Shown here one piece after another: positions 15,901 through 44,529 of a stretch of 64,000 bases of DNA (position 1 is the stretch's first letter; the number at the start of each line of letters is the position of its first letter). This stretch comes from an uncultured virus (IMG/VR IMGVR_UViG_3300044612_003086). Taxonomy: Duplodnaviria; Heunggongvirae; Uroviricota; Caudoviricetes. The stretch lies in IMG/VR virus record IMGVR_UViG_3300044612_003086, positions 62,001 to 126,000 of that record; one strand, written 5' to 3'. The notes under the pieces are model-generated. The model was not told the origin of the DNA. It did not search any database and was given only the letters and a program-made list of their open reading frames with translations. A program made the translations under genes and the position numbers.

Positions 15901-18900
15901 TCGGCAGGCAATCCAACGATTTTGTCTGGATGCGCTCCGATGAATTCCAAGGCAGCTGTAAGGGTGTTTTTGTTTGAATAAGAAATATATGCCCACGTAC
16001 CATCTGCGCTTGTTGGTATCTGACGGTAGAGGATTCCTTCCGATTCTGGAACGATGTAACCACGAGCCTTGTCCAGTAGCTCATTTCTCTCTTTTTCTGG
16101 CATATCTGCCAGTGACTGTCCGTCTGGACCAGAAATTCCGTATTTCTTTTGTATTGAATCAAGTTTCTTACGCAAATCATTTCCGGTGAGTGTTCCAAGA
16201 TTGAAGTCATGAGAAACCACATCCTGAAGTCGGCCAAACAACTTGTAGTCCGCAGAAACCTCATCAATCCCATTCTGCCTGTCGGTCATGTTTCCACGAC
16301 CAAGCATCAAGTTTCCAAGGAACGCAACTGTCTTTCCGTATCTGAATGAGTCAGTCAACGTCAAGTTGAAATCTGGATTGAGTCGAGCGAATGAGTCAGA
16401 TGAACCACGGAATCCATAAATTGATTGCCGTGGGTCACCGACCATGACTATTGCAAGATTATTATTCGCAATATTGTCTTCAATCACCTTTTGGAGAACT
16501 GGGTTTACGTCCTGAGCTTCGTCAAAGAAGAAAGTCGAAATGGGCTTATCTTCCGTTGCATATCGGCGACGCAATCCGGCGCGTGCTCCACCACCTGTGT
16601 AGACATAATCCACACCATCAACTTGGACTATTGAGCCTGGGTCAAGTTTTTTGTCCTGTGCTCTTGCATCTTTCACTTTTCTTGTGCCGTGACCAACCAT
16701 TCCAGCGTCTGTACGCAGATTTGGTTTTTGCATAGCCCAAATCTTTACTTGCTGGTCGTAGTTGGGCAGCACATTGCTCTTCGGGTCGAGCGTGTCAGAC
16801 CACATTTTGAGTGCTAGGTCAACCCACTCTTGTGGTATCTGGTCGAATGCTGTTTCGGCAGGGTCGATTGGGTCGCCAGACTCGGCAAGTTGCTTATTTC
16901 TTTCAATTTCGTGTGGACGAAGCTTGAAATGTTTTTCACTAAGCGCATCATCATCACTCTGTGAATAACGAGTAAGGGCGTTGATGAGAACAAGACCATA
17001 ATCGTCAGCAGTCAGCTCCACCCCTTCGTGGGTAAGTCCGTCTGGGTATTTCGTGCCGAAATCGTAGTGTCTCGCTACGTCGCGACCACCGCTTTCTGTT
17101 TCAAACGAAACGTATCCCAAAGTTCTGAATCCAGCTTTTTTCAATCCTGTTGTATCGACAGTTTTTCCACCATATCCCTCTGCAGACGTTTGTCTTGTTG
17201 ATTTAGGGTTTGCTGATGAGTAGTACTCGTTGCCGGCGCCAATGCCTATCTTTTTTAGTTTCTCTTTGAACTCTGGAGAAATTCCTGGCCTGTCTTCGAG
17301 CAATAGGGACCAGTATGCCAATTGGTTAATCGAAGAGCTTCCTGTGTTGTCAGGCATTCTACGTGCTGCTTCTGCAGCATTTTTCTTATTGAATGTTATG
17401 TAATAAAACTGTGACTCCGGAGATTCCTTGGCCATACGAATAACAGATTGTTCAACTGTGGTGGTTTTACCTGCTCCGGCTCCTGCGCGAACAGCAGCCA
17501 ATCCACCTTCACCAGTTTTTGTGAAGTGTGCAACTGTATCCATAACGTCTTTTTGTTCATCAGTCGGCTCAAACTTCATTCCAAACATTTCCATGAACGA
17601 ACCCTCAGTTCGCTCAATCTTGCGCTTAGGGTCCTTGGCGCCAACAATTGGTCCGCGGCCAGAAGAAAGACGCTTGTTAATTTGGTTATACGTGTTGCCT
17701 TCTTCGTCCTTGATAACGAATCCGGTTATGCCGCTTGAAAGACGATTATTCTCGTAGTCCTCAAGGATAGTTTTTACTGCAGATGGACCTTGTCCACGAA
17801 CACGCACGCGTTGACGTACTTTGTTTTCTGGTGTTGGTGTGCCGACAACTGGCTTTTTCTTTGGAATTGGGATAGTGATTCGACCAACGATTGGCGCTTC
17901 AATTGTGTAGTCTTCTTTACCCTTGCGTTCGCTGTCTGGAACACCAGCGCGCTTGCGCAGCGTTGCTGACTTATTCATAATGTAGTCAACAGCCTGCTGT
18001 CCGCCTTCAATTGCACGACGGATTGAGCTTGGGTCGTCCTGCAGTGCTTTGCGCCAGAACGCTAGGTACTGAATATGGTCTTCGCGTATTTGAGGCTCTA
18101 CACCGAGGAATCCCATCGCAAATGAAGCACCGATTTCTGCGATGAGTTCTTCAAATGCGTATTTCTTTCTCTGTTCTGGGGTGCCCTTCATTCTGCCGCT
18201 TAGGTCTCTCTTTAGTCGCGATGGATGGGCTGTCCAGTGAATAATTTCATGCAGAACTGTTCCATAGAAAGCAATTGGTTCAATAAAGTTCTCAAATGGA
18301 GGAACATTTATCGTGTCGTCGTTTGGGTCGTAGAATGCGCTGACTCCCTGTTCCTTGTATCTAGGACCAATTTCTTTGATTACATTTTCAATGTCTTCAA
18401 GTCGTTGTGCCGCATCAAGTTTTTCTGTTTCTTTGACTTCGTAGACCCATGCTGGCAGTCCGTCCATTTGGTCGGCGTTGAATACTGTTTCAATTTTGAA
18501 ACCTTTTTCACCAGTACGAATTCCGTCATCATTTTTTATGTCAAACGGAACGAGGATATTGACACCAATTTCTCCTGGTTTTGGTTTTGCTTTCTTATTC
18601 AACTCACGCCACTGCGAACGTCCAGCCCAACGATTTGTTTTGTATTTGCGCTTTGATGCGACCTGGGAAAGAATCAATTGATTCATGCCTTGATAAATAC
18701 GATTTCTTCTTGTTGGATTTCGACCGTACAACTCTGGCGAGCGCCAAGGCACTTGCCACTGGCCAGCTTTGCTTGGGTCCTTTAATATCTCATCAAGCGC
18801 AGCAATAATTGCTTCACCCATTTGCTGGTACATGTCTTTAATACGAGCTGCATCTGCTTCTTGATTTTCATCTTTTCCAGATGACAGTGTCTGGCCATCC

Positions 18901-21812
18901 CTGTATTCCCAGAGTGGTCCTAAGTAGTCTTGCTTTTCACGACGAGTGCGCTTGTTTTCTGGCTTTTTTAGGAAATTCTCAAATCCACTAGAAAGTCTTG
19001 GCGCGCTCTCGGCAGCACGCGATGCACTGCCTCTTCGAATCTCGGACATGTATCTTTGTTCTGCCTGGCGCACCTCCGTTCTTGTTACACCAAGTTTTTT
19101 GGCCATATCCTCAATGGATACGCCATTCATACGCTCTTCGTAAATATCCTGGTCTGTATAGTCTTCTGGGTTCTTTTCTGGTGGAGCGATTTTCCCTCGT
19201 TTTGGACGTGGCATTTCTTCGCCGAGGAAATCTCTAATAATTCTGTCGTATGTATCAGTTCCGCTCTCATCGAATGGAAGGTTGTCGTCGCCGTAGGGAT
19301 TATCTGGGTCGAAATCGTCATCGAGCGCAGGAAGTCTTCCGGATGAGAGTTTTCTATCTGGCTTGTTTGGGCTTGCACCGTCGAACCCATATGAGTTCAT
19401 CCAGCGAGCAAGAGTCTCTTTATCGTTTGGGTCCCATGTTCCAGTTGACGGGCGACGCTCATAGACTTCGCTGCGTAGCGCACTATCAAGTCCTTTAAGA
19501 AACTGGCTCTCGCCGTCTTCGCCAACATAATTTTTATTCTTGTCCTTTTTGTCTTTTCCGGCAAAATACTTATTTGTTGCATCGAGGTATGTGCCTAGTG
19601 TGCGAACAAAATCGTAATACCACTCTTGATACGCCTGTCCGCTCTTTGCTTTTTCGTTGAATTTTGCTGGGCGCTTCTTATCGTCGCCTTGCCATGCTCT
19701 TCTTGCTTGGTTGTACCCAAGCTCGCGCCCTCTTAAGAACTCTGCGGAACGTGTATTGTCTGTTTGGTAGCGAGGCACTTCTTCCCAGCCGAAGCCCTTA
19801 TCAACCCATTCCTGTGCAGTCTTGTCAAATGCTTCTCGTCTTGCCTGTTCATCTGGTGCGACACCAAACTTACTCTCGGTTTCTTTTCCAAGACCGTGAC
19901 GTGAAGTATTAAATCGTGAGCGTTTCTCAGCTCCAGAAGAGAAGGGTTTTGACGGTGTTGCCGGTTTTGCATCTTGCACGCCGACGAAGCGGGGTCGTGT
20001 TGTTCCTTCATCTACCCAGCCATCGTTGTCGGGGTCGAAGTCGCTCCCCGTTGGTCGTCGATTTCCTGGTGTTCCGCCGGTTGGCATGTCAATGTCGCCA
20101 CGGCGATTTCTTCTGTCTCGACGGCCACCGATTGATGGTCTGTCAATGAGTCTGCTGCCAACGTAGCTTCCTAGTCTTCGGCCAATCGCTTTTGACTCAA
20201 ACTCAGAGCTATCTAGAAATTTTTTTTTTATGTTTTCCAGAGCGTTATCGACTGCTTCAATAAAATCTAAACTAACCCCGGATTTGAGAACGATTCCATC
20301 AATATCCACTTCTGCATCAACCATGTAGTAATCGAGAATTGGGTCAATTTCTTGCTTGACACGGAACGCGTCATTTGGGTGAAGCGGAATGCAGTATTGC
20401 TCATCGAATGAGTTGTCATCTTTGCCAAATTCAGAAAGTGATTTAAATTTGCTACGCTTCTTTTTTCTCTTACCTACCGCTCCGCGAAGCATGGCCATGA
20501 CAAACTCGCCAGGGTACTTAACTTCTAGGTCTTCAATAGCTTCATCGAAATTTGCGTCTTCTTCAATTTCGTATTCCTTTTTAGCAATTCCATCGACATT
20601 GACAACGCCTTTTGGAATTACTGCAAAACGACATTTGCCTTCTGGTTCGATGTCCATATCAACAATCTTGCATGACCCATCATTTTGGAAGAACACGCAA
20701 TTTGCACACTTGACCCCGATTGATGCGATGGGATTTTCTGAAGCCGGTTTATATCCAGCCCACACACCATCTTTGTCTTCGTTGAACTTGCCGTGGCGTT
20801 TTACAATTTTTAGCAAAGCGTCACGCAGGTCCGCTTCCTCTTTATCGAGGTTGTTCTTATCTATTGGCTTGTTATTGCCCTCTTCGTACTGAACTGCAGG
20901 GAGCGGAACAACAACAACACCCTCCATGCCTGGCTTGACAGCTATTGGCATTGATGGCATCTGCTGTGGGCGGACCATTCTTCTTGGCTCATTTGGCGGA
21001 ACCATCATTGGTGCTGTTTGTGGTGCGGACGGTCTCTGCATCACTATTTCTTCTGGCGGGCCGAACATCATTCGACCACCCGTTCGACTCCAGCCACACT
21101 TGAATCTCTTAACTGAACCGTCAGCCACACGACGAGCAAATGTCAGATTTTCGTCGTCCATTTCCATGAGCGATATTTTTGCGCCAAGCATTCCTGAGAG
21201 TTGCTTTTCAATTTCCAACTTGTTCGGCTTTTCATCATCCATCATCATTACGGAGCTATCTTCGCCGTATGGGTCATCTGTCTTCACGGAAATTGTGCCA
21301 GTCAGTTGATTGGCTCCATGAAGAACTGGAGACACTTCATAAAGCTCCAACTCGTAGATTACGTTTGCCTGAGACTTTTGGTCATACTGTGCGCGCAGGG
21401 TTTTATATCCAATCGACCATTCTTGTTCTTCTCCAAAGAAAGCAACCATCGTGAAAGCTTCGCGGCCCTTTTCTGACTGAAGATTAAATTGAACTTTTGC
21501 AAATAATCCGCCGATTCCAGCAATCTTCATTTTTAGTGGTAGGCGTGGGTCAGACGGTGGCACCTCGTAAATTTCGAGTACTTTGCCGATTGGGTCATTC
21601 CAGTTATGGCCCCACACAACACGCGGCTTGCGGCGCTGAAGACTCTTCGTAAAAGCACCACTTGCGCAAATATCACCAACAGAGTCTTTATTGCCGATTC
21701 CAGCTACAAAGCACTCAACAATTCCTTGCATCTCATCGAGATTGACGGAGCCGGCTTTCTGTGAAGCGGAGCCAAGGGATGTCGACTTGTATTCAAAGTG
21801 GTCAGTGGTCAT
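12948..21812 (-). CDS. HK97-family prohead protease fused to a polyvalent protein (HiPIP-like Cys domain, sigma70-r4-like HTH, ArdC-N ssDNA-binding + MPTase metallopeptidase, UvrD/SF1 helicase)
   Basis: 2954-aa ORF; DSVGD...GAF..WGHNW.DPIG...WSIGY...LYEVSPV..GAN (protease); W..PW...Y.GMN...VFNADQ (ArdC); AFY...LHEIIHWT...YAFEELIAE (MPTase); AGAGAGKTT, DEAQD, VGDPRQSIYGFRG, HAAKGLEFD, YVMMTRAK (helicase). Confidence 0.9.
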   Translation of the reverse strand: MTTDHFEYKSTSLGSASQKAGSVNLDEMQGIVECFVAGIGNKDSVGDICASGAFTKSLQRRKPRVVWGHNWNDPIGKVLEIYEVPPSDPRLPLKMKIAGIGGLFAKVQFNLQSEKGREAFTMVAFFGEEQEWSIGYKTLRAQYDQKSQANVIYELELYEVSPVLHGANQLTGTISVKTDDPYGEDSSVMMMDDEKPNKLEIEKQLSGMLGAKISLMEMDDENLTFARRVADGSVKRFKCGWSRTGGRMMFGPPEEIVMQRPSAPQTAPMMVPPNEPRRMVRPQQMPSMPIAVKPGMEGVVVVPLPAVQYEEGNNKPIDKNNLDKEEADLRDALLKIVKRHGKFNEDKDGVWAGYKPASENPIASIGVKCANCVFFQNDGSCKIVDMDIEPEGKCRFAVIPKGVVNVDGIAKKEYEIEEDANFDEAIEDLEVKYPGEFVMAMLRGAVGKRKKKRSKFKSLSEFGKDDNSFDEQYCIPLHPNDAFRVKQEIDPILDYYMVDAEVDIDGIVLKSGVSLDFIEAVDNALENIKKKFLDSSEFESKAIGRRLGSYVGSRLIDRPSIGGRRDRRNRRGDIDMPTGGTPGNRRPTGSDFDPDNDGWVDEGTTRPRFVGVQDAKPATPSKPFSSGAEKRSRFNTSRHGLGKETESKFGVAPDEQARREAFDKTAQEWVDKGFGWEEVPRYQTDNTRSAEFLRGRELGYNQARRAWQGDDKKRPAKFNEKAKSGQAYQEWYYDFVRTLGTYLDATNKYFAGKDKKDKNKNYVGEDGESQFLKGLDSALRSEVYERRPSTGTWDPNDKETLARWMNSYGFDGASPNKPDRKLSSGRLPALDDDFDPDNPYGDDNLPFDESGTDTYDRIIRDFLGEEMPRPKRGKIAPPEKNPEDYTDQDIYEERMNGVSIEDMAKKLGVTRTEVRQAEQRYMSEIRRGSASRAAESAPRLSSGFENFLKKPENKRTRREKQDYLGPLWEYRDGQTLSSGKDENQEADAARIKDMYQQMGEAIIAALDEILKDPSKAGQWQVPWRSPELYGRNPTRRNRIYQGMNQLILSQVASKRKYKTNRWAGRSQWRELNKKAKPKPGEIGVNILVPFDIKNDDGIRTGEKGFKIETVFNADQMDGLPAWVYEVKETEKLDAAQRLEDIENVIKEIGPRYKEQGVSAFYDPNDDTINVPPFENFIEPIAFYGTVLHEIIHWTAHPSRLKRDLSGRMKGTPEQRKKYAFEELIAEIGASFAMGFLGVEPQIREDHIQYLAFWRKALQDDPSSIRRAIEGGQQAVDYIMNKSATLRKRAGVPDSERKGKEDYTIEAPIVGRITIPIPKKKPVVGTPTPENKVRQRVRVRGQGPSAVKTILEDYENNRLSSGITGFVIKDEEGNTYNQINKRLSSGRGPIVGAKDPKRKIERTEGSFMEMFGMKFEPTDEQKDVMDTVAHFTKTGEGGLAAVRAGAGAGKTTTVEQSVIRMAKESPESQFYYITFNKKNAAEAARRMPDNTGSSSINQLAYWSLLLEDRPGISPEFKEKLKKIGIGAGNEYYSSANPKSTRQTSAEGYGGKTVDTTGLKKAGFRTLGYVSFETESGGRDVARHYDFGTKYPDGLTHEGVELTADDYGLVLINALTRYSQSDDDALSEKHFKLRPHEIERNKQLAESGDPIDPAETAFDQIPQEWVDLALKMWSDTLDPKSNVLPNYDQQVKIWAMQKPNLRTDAGMVGHGTRKVKDARAQDKKLDPGSIVQVDGVDYVYTGGGARAGLRRRYATEDKPISTFFFDEAQDVNPVLQKVIEDNIANNNLAIVMVGDPRQSIYGFRGSSDSFARLNPDFNLTLTDSFRYGKTVAFLGNLMLGRGNMTDRQNGIDEVSADYKLFGRLQDVVSHDFNLGTLTGNDLRKKLDSIQKKYGISGPDGQSLADMPEKERNELLDKARGYIVPESEGILYRQIPTSADGTWAYISYSNKNTLTAALEFIGAHPDKIVGLPAEKYRDMVEFLRHYQFVLRPVGTRPRESKIIGNAWTMEEIRKRAGQKSSYGQLGSMLKLLQVRDAEGNQLSPLDWLNRLLGRRDPQTGEVLTRARIREIEEPLDVDPFKNIDGSSSTVSGEELIALGKQKAGKGGGGAKGAYKMNRDKRFNIIPNPTGQTPSREVFWKLDTESLGADGKWENGVIISGEGIIDVYQFRDAAGKIQYTGDKNGEKPMMRRRIEKMIKDLNLEGKVTIEKQYVPRKAGSSNAPAYDAVRIKGDNPEETGLLLSLVGRMITDSANEPEVDASFLTTHAAKGLEFDNVVAGDDFFQPKFEDDGSILPGNDISREMENLIYVMMTRAKKRIQLSEATSWIIDPKKNPKGFEYIEKFLTEEQQAPSGFWNPFGDGEQVFPDGAREILSSGRVNSVPETAVPGTGTNRSARRARLRGGDVERQATTETSAPETPGVQAPERTAAVGGPRSVNSSNRADRKARRMSSGSTYADNINATNLAAIRGSKTGESFAFARRFWDGFRKRGITLDTSSKSGTVKERRRQINEGLDKAAAAMKRRPQVTIGRVSGNENLSNPDADTWMLPVKSLKESIRIPTEFDVVRNPDNTIADVKWTKSEPISNTDLSRLLNLSPEDAKRISDDDSGISHNAVRFLVAELGNRPEFGGWRLFSPVTSDEPGVEKMSSAQRFAENLGRANMRDRFIIETFGKDAYPFWADREENQIISSDEYSTLGEVDPVAKFRATGRFTPNPEDADGEASAEADLIYEGMPDFVPEAPAPTVNETNPAGAKTSRRDFKLDNLIENLGLDRDEWMAQLRERMKRSFGMDDVGLTNPKDRKSWESDGVPVAAIQEMIRTGMIENAESVWPENGQKLDGELRASKANVAEAMVEFISNTQKGSGGNTKRNKEYILGTSNLSVLLNNAAKTRGKTFSKIKGDEPRYSSNELQDVVNRFNEIFGTSHTIEDIFSKEQLENARKRLQEEGRTMFGKSGTKE

Positions 21813-28220: not shown

Positions 28221-28598
28221 ATGCTTCGTCGTAAAAAGCCATTGAAGCGCACGCCGATAAAGCGTTCAGCAACAAAAGCAAAGCCGCGAAAAGCAATTCG
28301 CAAACGAAGCAAAAAAATGTCTGATACATATGTGGAGCGCCGAAAGCTTGTTGAGAAAGTTCTTCAAGAAAGACCGCTGTGTGAAGCATGCAAAATATTT
28401 GCTACACACGACGGAAAAATAACTTTCAATCACCATCTAAGCAGAGACCTGCATGAAGTTATTCGTCGCTCACAGGGCGGTTCGATTCTGGACGAAGAAA
28501 ATATCCTGGCTGTATGCAGGCCTTGTCACGCAAGAATTAACGCCAACCCGCAGCTTGCATTCGACCTTGGTTTAGCCAAGCATGGATGGGAACGCTAG
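28221..28598 (+). CDS. HNH endonuclease
   Basis: CEAC...DLHE...RSQGG.....N...VCRPCH; AGGAG RBS. Confidence 0.85.
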   Translation: MLRRKKPLKRTPIKRSATKAKPRKAIRKRSKKMSDTYVERRKLVEKVLQERPLCEACKIFATHDGKITFNHHLSRDLHEVIRRSQGGSILDEENILAVCRPCHARINANPQLAFDLGLAKHGWER

Positions 28599-29215
28599 TT
28601 TTCTACAGAACCAATTCTTGGGGCAACCCTTTTGCTTCCTGCCCAGGCATCTCTGAGGGATTCCCCATCATTCGTAGTCACATCTCCGCCATTAAGAAAT
28701 TGTCCGTAACCTCCAGAAACAATAACCAAATCAGCAACACCGAATAGGGCCAGCGTTATTCTCTTGCGACGCCATTTTTCTTCTACGAATATTTGTTGTA
28801 TTTTTGAATCTTGCTTAAACCATTGCAAAAACCCAACACGCTGAGAGCGTCCGAGAAATTTTTTGTTTATTAAGTCACTTTCCATAACTATTGTTCCGGA
28901 TGGGAAATCATCTCCGAATAATGCATAGATAAACATCATTGGTATTGCTGGACCGTTCGGATGTGGACGCGGCGCATCTTTCACTACATACCAAAGAGGA
29001 GGGGTAATCCCGATAATGTCTTCGTCTTTCCAGTTTATGAAAAGATTATTTTCTGAGTCTAGAGACCCATACCAAACCGATTCAGCGCTAGTAGGTTTAT
29101 CTTTAGAAACAACAGTGGAAGGACGCTCAAACTCCTCCGTCGAGAAAGCATGAACTTCCGCCCATCTGTTGTTTAATTTGCCTGATTCCCAAAACCAAAG
29201 TTGCTTAAAAGGCAT
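28595..29215 (-). CDS. Possible GNAT-like acetyltransferase
   Basis: IQQIFVEEKWRRKRITLAL resembles GNAT motif A (V...RR.GIA..L); T.DG downstream. Confidence 0.5.
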   Translation of the reverse strand: MPFKQLWFWESGKLNNRWAEVHAFSTEEFERPSTVVSKDKPTSAESVWYGSLDSENNLFINWKDEDIIGITPPLWYVVKDAPRPHPNGPAIPMMFIYALFGDDFPSGTIVMESDLINKKFLGRSQRVGFLQWFKQDSKIQQIFVEEKWRRKRITLALFGVADLVIVSGGYGQFLNGGDVTTNDGESLRDAWAGSKRVAPRIGSVEN

Positions 29216-29224
29216 TAGGCTAGG

Positions 29225-29917
29225 TTAGTCGTTCCACCAATCAACCCATGGCTTTTGTGTAGCAGAAACAGCATCTTCACCAGACATACCAGTGTATGCA
29301 ATCGAGATGATGACCTTTGCGTCATTCTCGTAGTCGTCCCAGTTGCCATCGACGTTGTAGACGAACATCTGGAGGAATTCGTCGGTATTCATAACCGCAG
29401 CATCTGCGAGGTACGTCCGTTCATTCCACTCTTCTTCGCTCCAATTGGAGTTTGTAGCGCGTGATTTTTCAATAGGTGATGCAGCAGTACTTCTAAGGCT
29501 CATTGCATTTCCTCCGAAACCGCCACCCTCTGTGCAGAATGCACCAATTCTTCCAGCGGCATCGTCTGGATTGCCAAGCCACATTGTTGGCTTAAGTTCT
29601 TCGTTTATGCTCTGGCTGTAGCCAAGGTCTTCAAATGCGTACAATATGTCGTTTGGGTTGTCGTAAATGCTGTGTTGAGTCTTGGAATTCTTTGCTTTAT
29701 AAGCCGCAAGAGCCAAAACTCTGTCAGTTGTCTCAATGTCCAAAGTTGTCTCATCACCCTGCCAGAAACCAGCCGTGTTGCCGTAAATCGCTTGTGTGGT
29801 GAACCAGATTGATACAATCTTGACTCTGAATGGGAATGACACATTCAAAAAAGATGGGTCGCTGATTTTTACGGTCCAATCGTAGTTAACTATGGATGGT
29901 GCGATAATTCCGGACAT
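29225..29917 (-). CDS. Hypothetical protein
   Basis: 230-aa ORF with AGGAG RBS. Confidence 0.75.
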   Translation of the reverse strand: MSGIIAPSIVNYDWTVKISDPSFLNVSFPFRVKIVSIWFTTQAIYGNTAGFWQGDETTLDIETTDRVLALAAYKAKNSKTQHSIYDNPNDILYAFEDLGYSQSINEELKPTMWLGNPDDAAGRIGAFCTEGGGFGGNAMSLRSTAASPIEKSRATNSNWSEEEWNERTYLADAAVMNTDEFLQMFVYNVDGNWDDYENDAKVIISIAYTGMSGEDAVSATQKPWVDWWND

Positions 29918-30017
29918 GTTTTCTCCTTCGAGTAGTTAAACAGCTTACTACAGATATTCTTTTTTAAAAGTTTATTATTAACACTTTCAGTATTTATTAC
30001 GGGTGTAATGTAGTAAT

Positions 30018-30085
30018 CCTTAGGACCGTTATAGGTGCGAGGGCCGGGTGCACAGGGCAACGTGCGGCACCCGGTTCTTGCATGT
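30018..30085 (+). ncRNA. Candidate small structured RNA (16-bp GC-rich stem with three G.U pairs)
   Basis: 30036-30051 pairs with 30067-30082; G.U pairs work only on the + strand; TAATGT -10-like box at 30006-30011. Confidence 0.45.
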
Positions 30086-30154
30086 TCAAAATTAAACAAA
30101 TTAATTTTTAATTGGTTTACTAATCAGTATTTATTTTTAGTGTTACGATTTTTT

Positions 30155-30304
30155 CATCTAGCCAACATCTACTCTTAGCGAGAGAAAGGCAGGTGGTCAA
30201 AGGTCTAGTAGCGCGAGCTACGGCAAAACTACGCCAGACGTAAAACCACCAGCGCCAGTAGCACCCGCCGGACAGGCTAGAAGTTCGGCGGGTCTTTGCT
30301 TTTT
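30155..30304 (+). ncRNA. Candidate ~150-nt multibranch ncRNA
   Basis: Extended -10 TGTTACGAT (30141-30149); nested helices CTACT/AGTAG, GGC/GCC, GGTGGT/ACCACC, GTCT/AGAC, GTAGC-GCGA-GCTAC; ends in a terminator. Confidence 0.6.
30263..30304 (+). terminator. Intrinsic terminator
   Basis: ACCCGCCG(GAC)...(GTT)CGGCGGGT stem followed by CTTTGCTTTTT. Confidence 0.7.
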
Positions 30305-30321
30305 AGGTTAATGTCTACTAA

Positions 30322-30858
30322 GTGAATATTCTTTCGCTCGACTTATCCCTAACGTCCACTGGTTATTGCCACAATGGCGAAACCGGAGTTATATCTGTCG
30401 ACAAAACTGGACCGCATCGTTTGTGGTTGATAAAACGCAAAGTTGAAGACCTAATCATTGAATTCTCGATTGACGTTGTTGCCATGGAGGGGTATTCGTT
30501 TGCTTCCAGGAATTCTCAGGCACATTCAATTGGTGAACTTGGTGGTGTGATTCGTCTCTTGCTTTGGGAATTGGGCAGGCCAGTAGTCGTGATTCCCCCA
30601 ACATGTAGAGCAAAATTTGCAACAGGAAAAGGCAATGCTTCTAAAAATGAAGTAATTTCTTCCATATCTGCAAAAACAGGACTAGTGTGGTCAAACCCTG
30701 GTGCAGATGATAAATGCGACGCTTGGATTATGGAAGAGATGGTTCTGGCTCGCCTTGGGAGTCCTAGATTTGACTGGCCAGCCACGCACGTATCTGGTCT
30801 AGAGAAAGTAGATTGGACGCTACTAAATGCCTACATTGAACAGCTTGGAGAGAAATGA
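30322..30858 (+). CDS. ruvC: RuvC-like Holliday junction resolvase
   Basis: LSLDLSLTSTG, VAMEGY, ELGG, KFATGKGNASK, DD..DA. Confidence 0.88.
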   Translation: MNILSLDLSLTSTGYCHNGETGVISVDKTGPHRLWLIKRKVEDLIIEFSIDVVAMEGYSFASRNSQAHSIGELGGVIRLLLWELGRPVVVIPPTCRAKFATGKGNASKNEVISSISAKTGLVWSNPGADDKCDAWIMEEMVLARLGSPRFDWPATHVSGLEKVDWTLLNAYIEQLGEK

Positions 30859-39816: not shown

Positions 39817-42800
39817 ATGGCCGACGAGACAGTCAATATAAAAATAAAGATTGATGCGAAGACTCGTGAACTTCGCAAGGTCATGGCTGAGCTTGGCGCG
39901 CTCAAGAAGATGGAGCGCCGTTTTGCTAGCGGTAGAACCATTGAAAACTACGCCCAATCCACCACCCGAAGTATTTCAGGTATGGCGTCAAAGTGGAAAC
40001 GCAGTTTCGATGAAATAGATGCTGCTACCAAGATGACTGGAAAGTTTCTTGGTGGCTTCTTGAAGCTCGCCATTAAGAGCGTAATTATAGAAATGGCGCT
40101 ACTTTCAGCAACAATGATTGGAGTTCACGCACTCTTCAAGGCTGGTCAATTCTTGGTCAAGGCGTACCAAGGAGCTATGCAGTTTTTAGCTGGTGGGGCT
40201 GCCGCAGCTGCGATGGCAATAGGAACAGTTGCTGCAGCAATACGTGAGCAGCAGGCAGCAATGTTTGCATATAGAGGAAAGGGAGCAAAAGAGTTCGGTT
40301 CATCCATGAATCAAACGAGAATGGCAATGCGAAACCTTCAATCAGATGTTTCGCTTGCAGGACTTGGTGTCGATTCGCTGAACAAGGCATTTGGCGTTAT
40401 GTCTAAGACCATGAATATGGCGCAGATAAATGCGAGCAATAAAACAATCCGAGCTTTGATGGATTTTGGTTCAGCAGGACAGGACCCAGCAAAAGCTGTT
40501 GAACAAGTTGCCGCAGTAGTCGCTGCTCTCTCTGACCAGAAAAAGGGAATCGGCGAGGTAATGGCCGAAGCAAAAAAACTCGGTCCAGAAATGCAAAAAG
40601 CACTGAAAGATGCGAATATTAAAACGAAAGACCAGTTTAAAGAGCTTTTATTTTCTGGAAAGCTTGCTGAAAAAGGAGGTGTTGCTGGACAGTTTGAAGC
40701 AGTAAACAACACACTCATCGGACAACTTAAAGCATATTTCGGAGTAATCCGTAGCGAATTTGCAGACTTCGGCGACCAGTTCCTTGAGCCAACCAAAAAA
40801 GCATTTGAAGAAGTATTTGGGATTATACGAAGAGACCTTGCTCGAGCAAGCGCAGCAATTGCCGGAGGTCCTGGATTCGATTCATTTACCGGTGGTTTTG
40901 TAACGGCAATAGACAAGCTGTCCAACTGGATGGTCACGATGTTGCGGGAGTATTTACCAAAAGCACAAGGAATGTTTGAAAGAATGGGCAATTGGTTTTC
41001 TAACTTCCGCCGTGGTTGGAACTTGCTTCTCGATAAGCTACGACCTCTCATAGATGGCGCTAGAGTTTTGTACAAAGCGTGGGACCCAATCTGGGAAGCC
41101 ATTAAGCGTGGCGCAGACAACCTTACTCTTTTCAGAGAATTGCTTATCAAGAATGAAGACAGTGTTGCCGAATTTGGGCAGCGCATAGGCGACTTGATTG
41201 ACAGCTTGGCTAAATATTTCATGAACATGAAAAAAATGTTTGCTGACATGGCTCCTTTTATAAACGACCTTCTCGCCGGAGTAAAAATGATGTTCGACCT
41301 TTTGTCGAAAATGCAAACTCTCGGTGCTGGAAATGGTCTTGCGTCCGCCCTTGCGCCTCTATTTGGTTTTGCTATAGCGGCACGAGGAATGAAGAGCGTT
41401 AAGGGCATGATGATGCCTGGCGTCGGCGCAATGAGTACCCAGCAAATGAACGTAACAGCAGGAACAGTAAATGTTGGAAGTGCTGCACTTACAGGACCAA
41501 CTGGCCCTTCGGAAATGTCAAGACTCGCCAGCGGAGGAAGGGCTGCAGCTGTCAGTGGTTCGCCGGAAGCAAAAAAGGGTCTCGCCTCAGGACTGGCTAC
41601 TGCTGGTATGGCATCGAAAGCTGGAGGTTCACCGAAAGAATTTCCAGGAGCTGGCTCCATTACTCCATCCACCGGATTCTTTCAGGCCCTTGGCATAGGG
41701 TATCGAGAGCCAACCAATAACGGGATGGCAGCAGCAACAGCCCGAAGGATTGAGGGATACGCACGGCGTCGCGATGCTGCGCTCGGGTTTACAACTGGCC
41801 CTGGCATTGGTTCGCGAATTGGTGCATCAATCATGGCACGCACTAGGGACTATGCATCAGCAGCAGCAATGACCCCGGCAGAAAGGGGTGGTCTCAGCGC
41901 ATCAGAATATGCCGCTGGCGGAGTTGGTGGTGGCGCTACATACGGAGAAGCAATGCGCAACTCAATGACGAGGGCCGGAGCGCATGTTCGTTATGGGGCA
42001 CTTGCAGGAGCCGATAGGGCTCAACTATTTGCGCGAAGAGTTGGTACTGCTGCTTCACGCGGCATGGACTACATGAGACAGGCTGCATATGACCCAAATC
42101 TAAAAAATGCTGACGGACAAACCGTGGGTGGATATGTAAACCTCCAGGAACAAAGAAATGCCATACGAGCAAACCGAGATTCAGCAATCGATGCACGCGG
42201 CGGAAAATTTCTCGCAAGGCAAGCAGAAAATATACGTGCCATGCGACAGAATTTACGCTTAGAAAGAAACATGACAAAATTCGGTGCAGCGCAGCAGAAA
42301 TTCGGTAAGAGCTTCGGTGGTCGAATGGGTACTGCGATGGGGCTTGGAATGGCCAGCCAGTATGCGCCAGAAGAAATGCGTGGAGCAATGGCGCTCGGCG
42401 CAACCGTATCGCAGCTTGACCCGCGACTTGGTATCGCGGTAGCTGGTATAGGTGGCGCCATGACTGCTCGTGGCGGACTCAAAGGCGGCCTTGCTGGAGC
42501 AGCTGGCGGAGCAGCGCTCGGCGCGCAGTTCGGAGGAGCATACGGAGCACTGGCTGGTGCGGTAATCGGAGGAGTATTTGGCGTAATCAAAGGCAGCATA
42601 AATAAAGGTGCTTATGAAATGAAGCAAGCCAGAGAAGTAGCTCGTGAAAGTATCAGGCAAATATTTTCCGGCATTGCAACTGCTGCTGGAACACAATTTG
42701 AAAGAAATAAAAGAACATACGAAGCTGGCGGCATGTTAAGCGGTGGCGGTGCGTTCGGCGATGTCGCCAAAGATTTTGTTTCCAGGAGGATGCGTGCAGC

Positions 42801-44529
42801 CACGGGAATACTCGCAATCTCAAGAACACAAAAACAAAAGGATTTGTATGGGAAGGGTGGCGGTCAAAAAACAATTGAAGAAGTCTTTCAGGAAGTATAT
42901 GCAAATCAAGAGAAGCTAGGAATCAGCATTCCAAAAAGCAAATACGAAGAAATAATGGGCAAGGGCAAATCCGGCAGAGATAAGCGTGCATATGGGTTTT
43001 TGAATGAACTTGGTTTTTCAGGTGTACAAGACGATAATCCATTTTTTCCAGATGACTACAGCAGTATGGAAAATGCAAGCATTGATGCAAAATTTCTTGC
43101 AAAAATGCAAGGATTTAAAGACATAGACAAGCAGGGCGACCTGCGCATGCAGTACCTTACAAAAATCACTGGAAAAAGCGGTGCGGAATTAGAAATTCTT
43201 GCAAAAAATCTTGGTGTAAACATATACGACCCGACGGTTAAATTCAATGAATTGTTAAAAGCGCTTGGCGAGAATGTTGTGAAAACAGCGCAAGAACTCA
43301 AAAATGCATTTGTTGATTTGTTCCTTGCAGCTGGAGATATATTTAGAAAACGTCGTGAAGGAAGAGAGTCCATACTTGCAATAAATTCTTCATCTCGAGG
43401 CCTTCGAGACACGCTTGTTTCAGGAGGCTTGAGTGATACAGAAAAAACTGTTGCCGTAGAAGGTTATTTTGAAAATTATTTCCAGCAGATATTGGCCTCA
43501 ACCGGTGGAGACCCTGTCGAAGCTTATCTTGCCACAGTTGGTTCATTTGGTACAGAAGGACAGGGCGTATATGCGCCTGGTCAGGTATTCGAGGGACAAT
43601 ATGGGGCCATTAATCCAAGCTACCAAACTGGAATACAAGAAGTTAAAAAAGGAATAGGAAATCAATACGGTGGTCAATTGCAGGCCATGCTTGGAGAATT
43701 AGGTTTTAACACTGACGCAAATATGGCTTCTCGACTAATCAGCGGTTTGAGCGACCAGGATATGACGAAGTTCTTGAATCTAACAAATAGGGGTGCGCTA
43801 TTTACTGGAGATAAAGGCGACTATACAGACGAGGACATAAGAAACATTCTATCGACGGTTGGTCTTGGTGGACTAGCGCTTGAACGGACACCAGAAGAAG
43901 CACTTAATGAAATTGCCAACAAGACTGCCGACTTAGCTACGGCATCAGAAGGACTGAAGTCCGCAGTTGAAGAATTCAATGGATACCTAGATGGATTCTT
44001 TGAAAACATGCAGGATAAACCAGAGTGGTGGTCAAAGTCTGCAATGGCTGAAATTATGAACCAGGACACCACAACTCCGCGTGGTGATACAACTTCAAGC
44101 AGGCTTTCGCAGACAATGGCCCGTCACGCAGCAATGGACAGCCAACTAACTGGCAAACGAAACGTAACATCCGCCTACAGAACAGTCGGACTTGGCTCAA
44201 TCAATTCAGACCATGTAACCGGAAGAGCGTATGACCTTACTGGCCAAAACCTTGGCGCATACTCGCGTCTTGTTCACGAAAACGGCGGGTTTGCAGAGTT
44301 CCACGGAACGCAAGCAAATCGACACCTACATGTAGTCCCAGCTAGAGCTGGAGACACTTCATCTCCCATGGCGCCTATGGGGATGTCAACAATGACAGCA
44401 GGTAGTGGTGGAAGCACAAACTACTTCAACATCGAGATTAATGGAGCAACGCAGTCACCAGAGGCAATCGCAAACATGGTGATGGCAAAGATTGCTGAAA
44501 AAGAAAGAAACGCCAGGGAGCGTAGCTAA
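39817..44529 (+). CDS. Tape measure protein with C-terminal M15-like (LAS) peptidase domain
   Basis: 1570-aa Ala/Gly-rich helical ORF after the chaperone; SDHVTGRAYD...HLHV zinc-peptidase motif. Confidence 0.88.
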   Translation: MADETVNIKIKIDAKTRELRKVMAELGALKKMERRFASGRTIENYAQSTTRSISGMASKWKRSFDEIDAATKMTGKFLGGFLKLAIKSVIIEMALLSATMIGVHALFKAGQFLVKAYQGAMQFLAGGAAAAAMAIGTVAAAIREQQAAMFAYRGKGAKEFGSSMNQTRMAMRNLQSDVSLAGLGVDSLNKAFGVMSKTMNMAQINASNKTIRALMDFGSAGQDPAKAVEQVAAVVAALSDQKKGIGEVMAEAKKLGPEMQKALKDANIKTKDQFKELLFSGKLAEKGGVAGQFEAVNNTLIGQLKAYFGVIRSEFADFGDQFLEPTKKAFEEVFGIIRRDLARASAAIAGGPGFDSFTGGFVTAIDKLSNWMVTMLREYLPKAQGMFERMGNWFSNFRRGWNLLLDKLRPLIDGARVLYKAWDPIWEAIKRGADNLTLFRELLIKNEDSVAEFGQRIGDLIDSLAKYFMNMKKMFADMAPFINDLLAGVKMMFDLLSKMQTLGAGNGLASALAPLFGFAIAARGMKSVKGMMMPGVGAMSTQQMNVTAGTVNVGSAALTGPTGPSEMSRLASGGRAAAVSGSPEAKKGLASGLATAGMASKAGGSPKEFPGAGSITPSTGFFQALGIGYREPTNNGMAAATARRIEGYARRRDAALGFTTGPGIGSRIGASIMARTRDYASAAAMTPAERGGLSASEYAAGGVGGGATYGEAMRNSMTRAGAHVRYGALAGADRAQLFARRVGTAASRGMDYMRQAAYDPNLKNADGQTVGGYVNLQEQRNAIRANRDSAIDARGGKFLARQAENIRAMRQNLRLERNMTKFGAAQQKFGKSFGGRMGTAMGLGMASQYAPEEMRGAMALGATVSQLDPRLGIAVAGIGGAMTARGGLKGGLAGAAGGAALGAQFGGAYGALAGAVIGGVFGVIKGSINKGAYEMKQAREVARESIRQIFSGIATAAGTQFERNKRTYEAGGMLSGGGAFGDVAKDFVSRRMRAATGILAISRTQKQKDLYGKGGGQKTIEEVFQEVYANQEKLGISIPKSKYEEIMGKGKSGRDKRAYGFLNELGFSGVQDDNPFFPDDYSSMENASIDAKFLAKMQGFKDIDKQGDLRMQYLTKITGKSGAELEILAKNLGVNIYDPTVKFNELLKALGENVVKTAQELKNAFVDLFLAAGDIFRKRREGRESILAINSSSRGLRDTLVSGGLSDTEKTVAVEGYFENYFQQILASTGGDPVEAYLATVGSFGTEGQGVYAPGQVFEGQYGAINPSYQTGIQEVKKGIGNQYGGQLQAMLGELGFNTDANMASRLISGLSDQDMTKFLNLTNRGALFTGDKGDYTDEDIRNILSTVGLGGLALERTPEEALNEIANKTADLATASEGLKSAVEEFNGYLDGFFENMQDKPEWWSKSAMAEIMNQDTTTPRGDTTSSRLSQTMARHAAMDSQLTGKRNVTSAYRTVGLGSINSDHVTGRAYDLTGQNLGAYSRLVHENGGFAEFHGTQANRHLHVVPARAGDTSSPMAPMGMSTMTAGSGGSTNYFNIEINGATQSPEAIANMVMAKIAEKERNARERS

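What the first reader, a model, noticed from the sequence alone, without database searches (positions are those of the whole stretch)
30141..30304. Self-contained ~150-nt multibranch ncRNA with possible 5'-end/terminator-loop pairing
Seen: an extended -10 box, then nested helices 30169-73/30257-61, 30188-90/30254-56, 30192-97/30245-50 and 30203-06/30236-39. A GCGA (GNRA) tetraloop hairpin sits at 30208-21 with A-rich junctions, and an intrinsic terminator closes the unit. TCTAGCC (30157-63) is complementary to GGCTAGA (30275-81) in the terminator loop, allowing a pseudoknot or switch. There is no ORF, and I cannot match it to tRNA, tmRNA, SRP, RNase P or a riboswitch I recognise. It may be a new phage RNA class or an attenuator for the ruvC-ParB-IbrAB operon.
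Basis: partly seen in the sequence, partly recalled or inferred. Interest (0 to 1): 0.7.

Follow-up and report, generated by a model that had tools for sequence, protein, structure and literature searches.

The report
Phage small RNA mimicking a ribosome-binding site
This is a real, conserved and so far unclassified ~150-base phage RNA gene whose unchanging core looks like a very long ribosome-binding site, so it may act on the host ribosome rather than switch the neighbouring ruvC gene on and off.

Summary
Window 30141-30304 carries an extended -10 box, a GCGA-capped hairpin, a strong intrinsic terminator and a 7-bp match between the 5' end and the terminator loop. The element has no Rfam match. 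It occurs once in this 134-kb phage record and in 96 other IMG/VR contigs (about 47 distinct sequences), almost always just upstream of a RuvC-like resolvase gene. Hairpin P2 and the terminator show compensatory changes; the 5'-end/loop pairing is kept in 22 of 35 distinct variants.

Two points are new. First, the invariant core AGAAAGG(C)AGGUGGUC is nearly the exact complement of the 16S rRNA 3' tail. A divergent subfamily has 16 contiguous pairs and a CCUCC-like strand that masks the core. Second, ruvC seems to have its own promoter: TAnnnT lies 5-8 nt before its start codon, a leaderless layout, which argues against a simple attenuator.

A second small unit 120 nt upstream begins with 17 nt perfectly antisense to 23S rRNA 1914-1930.

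Best reading (about 0.4): a stand-alone phage sRNA that pairs with the 16S tail. No expression data were obtained, and the host is unknown.

The parts
30116..30149 (+). Promoter-like region of the RNA gene: TTTAC (30116-20), a 20-nt spacer, then the extended -10 box TGTTACGAT (30141-49; 22 nt from TTTAC to the TACGAT hexamer).
   Evidence: Sequence read. It is the only match to TTTAC-N20-23-TGNTANNNT in the window. TTTAC and TGnTAnnnT are kept at the same spacing in diverged homologues. No transcription start was mapped.
30155..30163 (+). Predicted 5' end of the RNA: CAUCUAGCC. It pairs with the terminator loop; its GCC also closes helix P0.
   Evidence: 7 Watson-Crick pairs in the window. At least 6 contiguous pairs in 22 of 35 distinct 5'-end/loop combinations. 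One double compensatory change (CAUCUAGC/GCUAGAUG against CCUCUAGC/GCUAGAGG), and the other differences are mostly G-U.
30161..30190 (+). Helix P0: GCC 30161-63 with GGC 30188-90, plus inner pairs UCU 30168-70/AGA 30183-85 and CUC 30172-74/GAG 30180-82.
   Evidence: Local folds of 35 distinct 5' segments give this hairpin in nearly all of them. The inner helix differs between groups (UUUCU/AGAAA, UCCUU/AAGGA, UCC/GGA, CUCC/GGAG). The closing pairs are invariant.
30183..30198 (+). Invariant purine-rich core AGAAAGGCAGGUGGUC. It is the complement of the 16S rRNA 3' tail with a one-base bulge.
   Evidence: GG.GGTGGT is invariant in 46 of 46 sequences. The E. coli 16S 3' end was read from the annotated rrsH. 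Among all positions of the 134-kb phage record the core gives the best duplex with a ...CCUCCUUUCU tail, the 3rd best with a 13-nt E. coli tail and the 6th best with a 16-nt E. coli tail. Subfamily B' has 16 contiguous pairs.
30192..30250 (+). Helix P1: GGUGGU 30192-97 with ACCACC 30245-50.
   Evidence: In six groups the 3' strand varies (ACCACC, ACCGCC, GCCACC, GCCGCCG, GCCACCU, GCUGCCU) and still pairs with the invariant 5' strand. It is absent in other groups, where only the terminator 5' arm is complementary.
30203..30239 (+). Helix P1b: GUCU 30203-06 with AGAC 30236-39. It encloses P2 and the GGCAAA bulge (30222-27).
   Evidence: A helix of at least 4 bp next to P2 occurs in 30 of 34 distinct sequences, with variants GGUCU/AGACU, AAUCU/AGGUU, GUCUA/UAGAC and AUUUCU/AGAAAU. 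The mean length of 4.71 is barely above the shuffled 4.20. UC.AG and G.A of GGCAA are invariant.
30208..30221 (+). Hairpin P2: GUAGC-GCGA-GCUAC.
   Evidence: Predicted without guidance by RNAalifold on 46 sequences. 4 of its 5 pairs show changes on both sides.
30263..30304 (+). Intrinsic terminator: 11-bp stem 30263-73/30283-93, loop 30274-82 containing GGCUAGA, and tail CUUUGCUUUUU 30294-304.
   Evidence: MFE fold. It is one of 17 strong hairpin-plus-T-run sites found on both strands of the 134-kb record. 7 of its 10 pairs show changes on both sides, and 96.7% of cells are paired.
30309..30324 (+). Not part of the RNA: -10-like TAATGT (30309-14), 7 nt, then the ruvC start GTG (30322). This is a probable leaderless ruvC promoter.
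   Evidence: TAnnnT ends 5-8 nt before the start codon in 36 of 40 distinct ruvC upstream regions (80 loci), against 21 of 223 ORFs of at least 100 aa in this phage. There is no Shine-Dalgarno sequence before ruvC, although other genes of the phage have one.
30018..30084 (+). Companion unit 'module A'. The 5' segment CCUUAGGACCGUUAUAG (30018-34) is antisense to 23S rRNA 1914-1930. It is followed by hairpin 30044-51/30067-74 and the tail UUCUUGC.
   Evidence: 17 contiguous Watson-Crick pairs with E. coli 23S; shuffles give a mean of 9.5 and a maximum of 13. The motif is invariant in 69 of 80 RuvC loci, and its hairpin has five different stem sequences. There are at least 120 stretches in IMG/VR.

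Best explanation
The element is a self-contained phage gene for a stable structured RNA of about 150 nt, roughly 30155-30304 on the + strand. It is transcribed from its own extended -10 promoter and ended by its own intrinsic terminator.

The 5' end is tucked into the terminator loop. Helices P0, P1/P1b, P2 and a variable region frame three invariant segments: GGUGGU, UCUAG and GGCAA.

The invariant purine-rich core, AGAAAGG(C)AGGUGGUC(C), imitates an over-long Shine-Dalgarno sequence. In the free RNA it is masked by strands that resemble the 16S tail: the 5' strand of P0 and the 3' strand of P1.

Proposed action: the core pairs with the single-stranded 3' tail of host 16S rRNA, which carries the anti-Shine-Dalgarno sequence. 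The RNA would thereby occupy free 30S subunits.

Together with the neighbouring unit A, which is antisense to 23S rRNA 1914-1930 at the subunit-bridge helix 69, this would shift translation away from Shine-Dalgarno-led initiation. The leaderless ruvC message starts right beside both units.

What is shown: the anatomy, the conservation, the covariation and the complementarities.

What is inferred: transcription, the RNA ends, binding to the ribosome, and any effect on translation.
For: It is a real RNA family.
- 96 IMG/VR contigs carry the core plus terminator (38+27+31). There is one copy in the window and one in the whole record.
- P2 and the terminator covary.
- The promoter and terminator are conserved.

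It is a separate unit, not the ruvC leader.
- The ruvC -10-like hexamer sits at leaderless distance in 36 of 40 distinct regions, against 21 of 223 control ORFs.
- In 80 RuvC loci the arrangements are: A then B 50, A only 18, B only 8, B then A 1, neither 2, upstream DNA cut off 1.

The 5' end pairs with the terminator loop on the + strand: at least 6 bp in 22 of 35 distinct variants.

The core is a complement of the 16S tail.
- The E. coli tail GGAUCACCUCCUUA was read from the annotated rrsH.
- The core ranks 1st, 3rd or 6th of all positions on both strands of the phage record, depending on the tail used.
- The divergent subfamily B' is recognised by a covariance model built only from B (E about 1e-6).
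- B' has a different core, UUAGGGAGGGGGUGGUCC. It forms 16 contiguous pairs with the tail, at -25.4 to -27.9 kcal/mol. Its masking strand is AUCUCCUC, which resembles the anti-Shine-Dalgarno sequence.
- No start codon follows at Shine-Dalgarno distance. Insertions of 1 or 2 nt between groups rule out a conserved reading frame.

The companion unit A is perfectly antisense over 17 nt to 23S rRNA.

There is a precedent for acting on these two rRNA regions together. In a review (PMC5408214, passages read), the toxin MazF-mt3 cleaves 23S helix/loop 70 and the 16S anti-Shine-Dalgarno sequence, and this is postulated to favour leaderless mRNA.

There is also a precedent for a non-initiating Shine-Dalgarno-like sequence that binds 30S: STAB-SD (PMC4113751, passage read).
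Against: - In the predicted fold of the window's RNA the whole core is base-paired, in P0 and P1. It would have to open before it could bind 16S.
- All 46 sequences have GGUGGU, where GGUGAU would pair better with the universal GAUCACC. The invariance may therefore serve another partner.
- With E. coli-type tails the core is only the 3rd or 6th best site in the genome. Other sites reach -19 to -21.5 kcal/mol.
- Many of the phage's own genes have ordinary Shine-Dalgarno sequences. Only 21 of 223 ORFs show the leaderless-type layout. General blocking of the anti-Shine-Dalgarno sequence would therefore hurt the phage too.
- Units A and B occur without each other.
- The host, and hence its 16S tail, is unknown.
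- The complementarity was found after the fact, among several ideas that I tried.
Confidence: 0.4

Rival explanations
1. Cis-acting leader or attenuator (riboswitch-like). Transcripts from the element's promoter either stop at the terminator or read into ruvC-ParB-PAPS reductase. The outcome would depend on whether the core GGUGG pairs with its partner or with the 5' arm of the terminator. The trigger could be a ligand, a protein or the 30S subunit.
For: - The element lies 18-40 nt before ruvC in nearly all cases. A RuvC N-terminus follows within 75 nt of the terminator in 92 of 95 loci with enough DNA.
- The invariant junction nucleotides and variable helices look like an aptamer.
- In groups without a separate CCACC partner, the terminator 5' arm is complementary to the core. 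Examples are CAGGUGG/CCGCCUG in L056, L066 and L109, and GGCGGGU/ACCCGCC in L055.
- In subfamily B' the terminator has a quite different sequence, yet it still begins with GCCAC.
- The U-tract is interrupted (CUUUGCUUUUU), so some read-through is plausible.
Against: - ruvC has a conserved -10-like hexamer at leaderless distance and no Shine-Dalgarno sequence. A read-through transcript would therefore be a poor message.
- The truncated transcript folds with the core paired to the terminator arm in only 7 of 45 distinct sequences, and in 0 of the window's group.
- In the window's group P1 has its own partner, so the 11-bp terminator can form regardless.
- In L079, L347 and L356 another unit lies between this element and ruvC.
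Confidence: 0.2
2. A structured phage RNA that works through a folded shape, binding a phage or host protein or another RNA. In this reading the likeness of the core to a Shine-Dalgarno sequence is a by-product of the purine-rich strands of helices P0 and P1.
For: - Conservation is split over three short segments at helix junctions (GGUGGU, UC.AG, G.A of GGCAA), while the helices vary. That is typical of RNAs with a defined fold.
- The core is paired in the predicted structure.
- Changes in the purine stretch are matched by changes in the 5' strand of P0, so internal pairing alone can explain them.
- GGUGGU is invariant although GGUGAU would fit 16S better.
Against: - It does not explain why subfamily B', with a different core sequence, fits the 16S tail even better (16 contiguous pairs), nor why its masking strand is CCUCC-like.
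- It does not explain why the neighbouring unit is perfectly antisense to 23S rRNA.
- No partner protein can be named. Flanking genes differ between loci, except ruvC and, in most, an HNH gene.
Confidence: 0.25
3. A ribosome-loading or stabilising leader, of the STAB-SD or standby-site type. Some transcripts read through the terminator, and the Shine-Dalgarno-like core holds a 30S subunit. That would protect the ruvC message or deliver ribosomes to its start codon, which lacks a Shine-Dalgarno sequence.
For: - The core is complementary to 16S with no start codon behind it.
- ruvC lacks a Shine-Dalgarno sequence.
- STAB-SD and polypurine stabilisers are documented (PMC4113751 passage; PMC2358910 abstract and passages).
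Against: - The core lies about 125 nt and a strong terminator away from the start codon.
- The 5' end/terminator-loop pairing makes sense only for the terminated RNA.
- The -10-like hexamer at leaderless distance points to a separate ruvC transcript.
Confidence: 0.1
4. A DNA-level element. The repeated CTAG-containing motifs (TCTAGCC, GTCTAG, GGCTAGA) would be operator half-sites or another protein-binding array in front of ruvC, and the hairpins incidental.
For: - TCTAGCC and GGCTAGA form an inverted repeat.
- Some variants have palindromic 5' motifs: GGCTAGCC in L094 and GCTAGCGCGC in L066.
- Half-sites for one protein would also change together.
Against: - Differences between the two 'half-sites' are almost all transitions that give G-U pairs on the + strand: 7 G-U against 1 mismatch by my reading.
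- Compensatory changes in P2 and the terminator stems have no DNA-level rationale.
- The promoter and the terminator with its U-tract are conserved in the same orientation.
Confidence: 0.05

Closest known systems
STAB-SD of Bacillus thuringiensis cry3A, and polypurine 5' stabilisers (phage SP82 early RNA, mycobacterial katG)
   Same: A Shine-Dalgarno-like sequence complementary to the 3' end of 16S rRNA that does not start translation and is thought to hold a 30S subunit (PMC4113751 passage; PMC2358910; the SP82 case is recalled, not read).
   Different: Those elements are short stretches in the 5' untranslated region of the message they protect. Here the sequence is 16-17 nt long and extends over the whole 16S tail. 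It is embedded and masked in a multi-helix RNA, and it sits in a unit that ends at its own terminator before any gene.
Ribosome reprogramming by MazF-type toxins (MazF-mt3, MazF-ec)
   Same: The same two rRNA neighbourhoods are involved: the 16S anti-Shine-Dalgarno tail and the 23S helix 69/70 bridge region. There is also the same link to leaderless messages (review PMC5408214, passages read).
   Different: Those are protein endonucleases that cut rRNA. Here two small RNAs are complementary to the sites. Unit A covers 1914-1930, 9 nt before the UUCCU toxin site at 1939-43. The likeness is in what may be achieved, not in ancestry or chemistry. The RNAs could equally well shield the sites from such toxins.
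Stable phage regulatory RNAs with internal complementary boxes (P4 CI RNA, P1/P7 c4 RNA); phi29 packaging RNA
   Same: A small phage-encoded stable RNA with a conserved loop sequence complementary to another conserved box. In phi29 pRNA, loop-loop pairing joins molecules together (all recalled from general knowledge).
   Different: There is no sequence or structure match: the phi29 pRNA family and all other Rfam families were scanned without a hit. The target boxes of CI and c4 lie in phage messages. I found no such box in the window: the only match to the core's complement is the core itself.
Candidate structured RNA 'DNAVirus_908' of Fremin, Bhatt and Kyrpides 2023 (PMC10690425)
   Same: A catalogued candidate RNA of DNA viruses with a RuvC-domain gene within 25 bp downstream in 45 cases (supplement table).
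   Different: It is listed as 104 nt, with no RNIE terminator, flagged palindromic, and with predicted hosts in Betaproteobacteria. Only 17 of 93 sequences come from fresh water, so it is a poor fit. Its alignment files could not be opened. Six of our contig names were not found in the readable tables. Whether the present family is in that catalogue remains open.

Membership tests
Any Rfam 15 family (including T-box, phi29 pRNA, riboswitches, tmRNA, SRP, RNase P, 6S) | Covariance-model score at or above the family's gathering score | tested here: not met
   0 matches in the whole window at gathering score. At E<=10 on 29900-30450 the only match is a chance hit to STnc130 (20 bits against 55 needed) at 29900-29994, outside the element. 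ARAGORN found no tRNA or tmRNA.
Intrinsic (Rho-independent) terminator | G+C-rich stem-loop followed directly by a U-rich tract, on the transcribed strand | tested here: met
   11-bp stem at 30263-93 followed by CTTTGCTTTTT. The stem is kept by compensatory changes in 7 of 10 pairs.
Transcription-attenuating leader or riboswitch | An antiterminator helix that excludes the terminator and is conserved | tested here: inconclusive
   The core can pair with the terminator 5' arm in all groups, over 5-7 bp and often with G-U pairs. It is the predicted fold of the truncated RNA in only 7 of 45 distinct sequences.
Transcription-attenuating leader or riboswitch | The downstream gene depends on read-through and has no promoter of its own after the terminator | tested here: not met
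   TAnnnT lies 5-8 nt before the ruvC start in 36 of 40 distinct regions, against 21 of 223 control ORFs. This is inferred from sequence; no start site was mapped.
STAB-SD or polypurine 5' stabiliser | Shine-Dalgarno-like sequence complementary to the 16S 3' end, with no start codon at initiation distance | tested here: met
   There is no ATG, GTG or TTG 5-12 nt after AGGUGG in the window. The reading frame is not kept between groups.
STAB-SD or polypurine 5' stabiliser | Lies in the 5' untranslated region of the message that it stabilises | tested here: not met
   A strong terminator and a separate ruvC promoter-like site lie between the core and the first gene.
Trans-acting small RNA gene | Own promoter and own terminator, conserved as one unit independent of neighbouring genes | tested here: met
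   Promoter motifs and the terminator are conserved. The unit occurs with or without unit A, and once in the reverse order.
Trans-acting small RNA gene | A discrete transcript of the predicted size exists | not testable with these tools
   No small-RNA library or raw reads of an infected host were on hand.
Anti-rRNA (ribosome-targeting) RNA, proposed here | Conserved segment complementary to an exposed, conserved rRNA segment, beyond chance | tested here: inconclusive
   For this element, the core ranks 1st to 6th in the genome against the 16S tail, and subfamily B' has 16 contiguous pairs. But the core carries a bulge and an invariant G-U pair, and it is masked. For unit A the test is met: 17 contiguous pairs with 23S, against a maximum of 13 in shuffles.

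The most novel reading that the evidence does not exclude
The phage carries two small RNA genes side by side, and both are aimed at the ribosome. Unit B, the finding, imitates a very long Shine-Dalgarno sequence and caps the anti-Shine-Dalgarno tail of 16S rRNA on free 30S subunits. Unit A pairs with the helix 69 loop and 3' strand of 23S rRNA (1914-1930) on free 50S subunits or on nascent rRNA.

Together they would act as an RNA-only counterpart of MazF-mt3-type ribosome reprogramming. They would either shut down Shine-Dalgarno-dependent initiation in favour of leaderless messages such as the adjacent ruvC, or shield these two rRNA sites from host toxins that cut them during abortive infection.
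Probability: 0.3. Interest if true: 0.95.

Novelty: categorically new. Interest (0 to 1): 0.82.

Why it matters
Natural small RNAs that act by pairing with ribosomal RNA are almost unknown in bacteria and phages. My two literature searches for such phage RNAs found none.

If this family does bind the 16S tail, and its neighbour binds 23S helix 69, phages would have an RNA-only way to take over or protect the host's translation machinery. It would aim at sequences so conserved that it would work in almost any bacterium. That would bear on host shut-off, on how leaderless genes get translated, and on counter-defence against rRNA-cutting toxins.

Even on the most cautious reading, this is a well-defined new structured RNA family. 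It has about 47 distinct members, clear covariation, a 5'-end/terminator-loop pseudoknot and a fixed genomic place. It is ready for biochemical study and for entry in RNA family databases.

Tried and rejected
- **Known families.** The Rfam scans and ARAGORN found no known family.
- **GenBank phages.** blastn of 29900-30400 against the phage collection gave no match.
- **Expression.** One search for sequencing runs found five freshwater metatranscriptome runs holding 13-19% of the sampled words. Four were laid on the window. One contig per run lay only on the ruvC coding part (30378-30720, depth 2.5-7.1). Nothing lay on the RNA element. These are contigs, not reads, and small RNAs are poorly represented, so this says nothing either way.
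- **Host.**
  - The terminase's nearest relatives, at 42-44% identity, are Gordonia and Methanobacterium/Methanothermobacter phages.
Only 1 of the 120 loci passed the looser regex for core plus TC[TG]AG, and its flanks did not resemble the element, so I found no convincing homologue.
- **5' region against 23S rRNA 1055-1070.** A 10-nt run, or 13 of 14 with a bulge, looked attractive. Its duplex energies are no better than the best sites of shuffled sequences, and it is not kept in other groups. Rejected.
- **30259-70 against 23S 948-959.** The 12-nt match is within the range of shuffles.
- **Unit A as a repeated phage promoter.** It resembles SP6/K11-type promoters, but there is only one copy in the window. 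Rejected.
- **Resemblances recalled from memory.** These were tRNA D-arm, the T-box sequence, and the Cas12a repeat (UCUACUCUU). No tool supported any of them.
Not conserved.
- **A target for the core within the window.** The only match to its complement is the core itself.
- **Structural aligner.** mafft-xinsi and mafft-qinsi are not usable on the script machine, so the variable middle region was analysed group by group.
- **Catalogue of Fremin et al. 2023.** The alignments could not be read and our contig names were not found.
- **Earlier notes of this scan.** None for this genome or sequence.
Full report
**Setting.** The window is bases 62001-126000 of a 133,891-base IMG/VR virus record, estimated 89% complete.

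The finding lies in a 404-nt gap between two genes that point away from each other:
- a - strand ORF (29225-29917) with no family match;
- a + strand gene (30322-30858) for a RuvC-like Holliday-junction resolvase (Pfam RuvC, E 2.6e-5; phrog_159, E 7.8e-32).

Downstream of the resolvase gene come a small unknown gene, a ParB-like gene and a PAPS-reductase-like gene. Portal, large terminase, Rad52-like, PD-(D/E)XK and HNH genes lie upstream.

**The observation.**
- The + strand folds to -57 kcal/mol, z = -3.5; the - strand folds about as well.
- Rfam gives nothing at gathering score in the window and nothing on the element at E<=10.
- ARAGORN finds no tRNA or tmRNA.

**Relatives.** I collected homologues in three ways.
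- A search for relatives of the resolvase returned 80 viral loci at 61-99% protein identity. The element is present upstream of the gene in 59 of them.
- Pattern scans with the core motif found further contigs.
- In all, 96 IMG/VR contigs carry the core plus a terminator, 38+27+31. This amounts to about 47 distinct sequences in roughly eleven groups.

Further points:
- A RuvC-type N-terminus begins within 75 nt of the terminator in 92 of the 95 loci with enough DNA. Two of the exceptions have another unit in between. The third, L051, is a RuvC locus that my regular expression missed.
- The element occurs once in the window and once in the whole record.

**Anatomy supported by comparison.**
- *Promoter.* TTTAC, 20 to 21 nt, then TGnTAnnnT is kept in diverged members. 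That places the start near 30155.
- *P2 and the terminator.* RNAalifold on 46 sequences predicts, without guidance, only hairpin P2 and the terminator; 11 of its 15 predicted pairs have changes on both sides.
- *Named structure.* Counting on P0 closing pairs, P2 and the terminator gives 93.3% paired cells and 105 double changes. Shuffles give 81.9% and 30. No shuffle out of 500 reaches either observed value, and sliding the partners breaks the pairing.
- *Strand.* The G-U pairs lie on the + strand.
- *P0.* Local folding of the 35 distinct 5' segments shows a hairpin closed by GCC/GGC. Its inner helix changes sequence from group to group.
- *P1.* The invariant GGUGGU pairs with a downstream CCACC-type strand in six groups. 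That strand varies (ACCACC, ACCGCC, GCCACC, GCCGCCG, GCCACCU, GCUGCCU) but keeps the pairing. Other groups lack it, and only the terminator's 5' arm is complementary there.
- *P1b.* The helix next to P2 has only weak statistical support.
- *5' end with terminator loop.* At least 6 contiguous pairs occur in 22 of 35 distinct combinations. There is one fully compensatory change, and the remaining differences are mostly G-U on the + strand. It is absent in 13 combinations from other groups.

**Is it the ruvC leader?** Probably not.
- ruvC has no Shine-Dalgarno sequence, although other genes of the phage do.
- A TAnnnT hexamer ends 5-8 nt before the ruvC start codon in 36 of 40 distinct upstream regions from 80 loci. 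Of the four exceptions, two have an HNH gene overlapping ruvC. Among 223 other ORFs of this phage the figure is 21. This is the layout of a promoter for a leaderless message (general knowledge; no start site was mapped).
- The element is one of two interchangeable units in front of ruvC. Among the 80 loci the order is A then B in 50, A alone in 18, B alone in 8, B then A in 1, neither in 2, and 1 has its upstream DNA cut off.
- The predicted fold of the transcript without the terminator's 3' arm pairs the core with the terminator's 5' arm in only 7 of 45 distinct sequences, and in none of the window's group.

**The core.** The invariant stretch, GG.GGUGGU within AGAAAGGCAGGUGGUC at 30183-98, is the complement of the single-stranded 3' tail of 16S rRNA.
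- The E. coli tail...GGAUCACCUCCUUA, was read from the annotated rrsH gene. The longer ...CCUCCUUUCU form of many other bacteria is textbook knowledge.
- With a one-base bulge, every position of the core pairs with that tail.
- Scanning every position of both strands of the phage record, the core is the best site for the longer tail (-22.5 kcal/mol). It is third for a 13-nt E. coli tail and sixth for a 16-nt one. It is therefore near the top but not an isolated outlier.

The stronger argument is a divergent subfamily, B', found while following unit A (loci L476, L479, L504, L506).
- A covariance model built from B alone recognises B' at E about 1e-6.
- It has the same plan: UCUA, hairpin, GCAA, a flanking helix AUUUCU/AGAAAU, a terminator, then TAGTTT, 7 nt and the GTG of ruvC.
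- Its core is different, UUAGGGAGGGGGUGGUCC. It makes 16 contiguous pairs with the 16S tail, at -25.4 to -27.9 kcal/mol.
- The strand that masks it in P0 is AUCUCCUC, which looks like the anti-Shine-Dalgarno sequence itself.
- No start codon follows at working distance, and 1- and 2-nt insertions between groups exclude a conserved reading frame.

**The neighbour.** Unit A (window 30018-30084) has the same build: promoter, conserved 5' segment, a hairpin with five different stem sequences, and a U-rich tail.
- Its first 17 nt, CCUUAGGACCGUUAUAG, are perfectly antisense to E. coli 23S rRNA 1914-1930. Shuffles give longest runs of mean 9.5 and maximum 13.
- Reading the gene shows that this stretch is the 3' half of the helix 69 loop, its 3' strand and the following linker. 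It ends 9 nt before the UUCCU at 1939-43 (helix numbering recalled).
- The same DNA is the centre of the 26-bp I-CeuI site in rrl genes (PMC7104398, passage read).
Two of these are coding false positives. Seven come from a different phage context in which the complementarity extends by four more bases.

**Mechanism.** I take the element to be a stand-alone, stable small RNA. Its masked core can open and pair with the 16S tail of free 30S subunits.
- A non-initiating Shine-Dalgarno-like sequence that holds a 30S subunit is known from STAB-SD (PMC4113751).
- Joint action on the 16S anti-Shine-Dalgarno tail and the 23S helix 69/70 region, with a postulated shift towards leaderless messages, is known from the toxin MazF-mt3 (review PMC5408214).
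- The two units sit beside a probably leaderless gene.

All of this beyond the complementarities is inference. The points against it:
- the core is fully paired in the window's predicted fold;
- GGUGGU is invariant where GGUGAU would pair better;
- the phage's own genes mostly use Shine-Dalgarno sequences;
- the two units occur without each other;
- the host is unknown;
- I obtained no expression data.

I therefore put this reading at about 0.4. The rivals are a fold-dependent RNA with another partner (0.25), an attenuator (0.2), a stabilising or standby leader (0.1) and a DNA-level element (0.05).

**Novelty.**
- No Rfam family matches.
- Two full-text searches for phage or bacterial RNAs complementary to rRNA found nothing comparable. 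One search for structured RNAs near RuvC led only to large catalogues.
- One catalogue entry, DNAVirus_908 in PMC10690425, lies before RuvC genes. Its listed length, lack of a terminator and Betaproteobacteria hosts fit poorly. Its alignments could not be opened, so prior listing cannot be excluded.

Noticed in passing
window 30018-30084 (+): A second small transcription-unit-like module ('A'). It has a promoter-like region, then the invariant CCTTAGGACCGTTATAGG, then a GC hairpin (30044-51/30067-74) and the tail TTCTTGC. Its first 17 nt are perfectly antisense to 23S rRNA 1914-1930 (helix 69 region), which is also the centre of the I-CeuI homing site in rrl genes. It is present in 69 of 80 RuvC loci and in at least 120 IMG/VR stretches.
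   Followed up: partly
window 30309-30324 (+): TAATGT lies 7 nt before the GTG start of ruvC, and there is no Shine-Dalgarno sequence. The same TAnnnT at 5-8 nt occurs in 36 of 40 distinct ruvC upstream regions, against 21 of 223 other ORFs. This is a probable leaderless promoter.
   Followed up: yes
L479:427-544 (also L476, L504, L506): Divergent subfamily B' of the finding. Its P0 is AUCUCCUC/GGGAGGGG, its core has 16 contiguous pairs with the 16S tail, its terminator has a different sequence, and it is again followed by ruvC.
   Followed up: yes
L419, L428, L438, L440, L442, L474, L482 (module A at about 421-436 of each): Module A in a different phage context, with no RuvC after it. It is preceded by a GCGAAAGC mini-hairpin. 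Its complementarity to 23S rRNA extends by GCUA (23S 1931-34) with a one-base bulge, and it is followed by a different hairpin and a T-run.
   Followed up: no
window 29985-30017 and 30116-30149 (+): The promoter-like regions of modules A and B share CAGTATTTATT and a TT(T/A)AC box 22-23 nt before the -10 hexamer. This suggests that the two units arose by duplication. The spacing is unusual for a sigma-70-type promoter.
   Followed up: no
window 41876-41895 (+), inside ORF 39817-44529: CGGCAGAAAGGGGTGGTCTC is the second-best complement of the long 16S tail in the whole phage record (-21.5 kcal/mol). It lies inside a 1570-aa ORF. Unexplained, and possibly chance.
   Followed up: no
window 10812-10841 (+): Another strong terminator-like hairpin (TGGCATGG-TGT-CCATGCCA) has the tail TTTTTGCTTTC. 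The TTTGC in the U-tract recurs in the terminators of modules A and B.
   Followed up: no
window 28595-29917 (-): Two - strand ORFs (206 and 230 aa) with no Pfam or PHROG match sit between the HNH gene and module A in this phage. In most relatives the HNH gene directly precedes the modules.
   Followed up: no
window 12948-21812 (-): A single ORF of 2954 aa. It was not examined.
   Followed up: no
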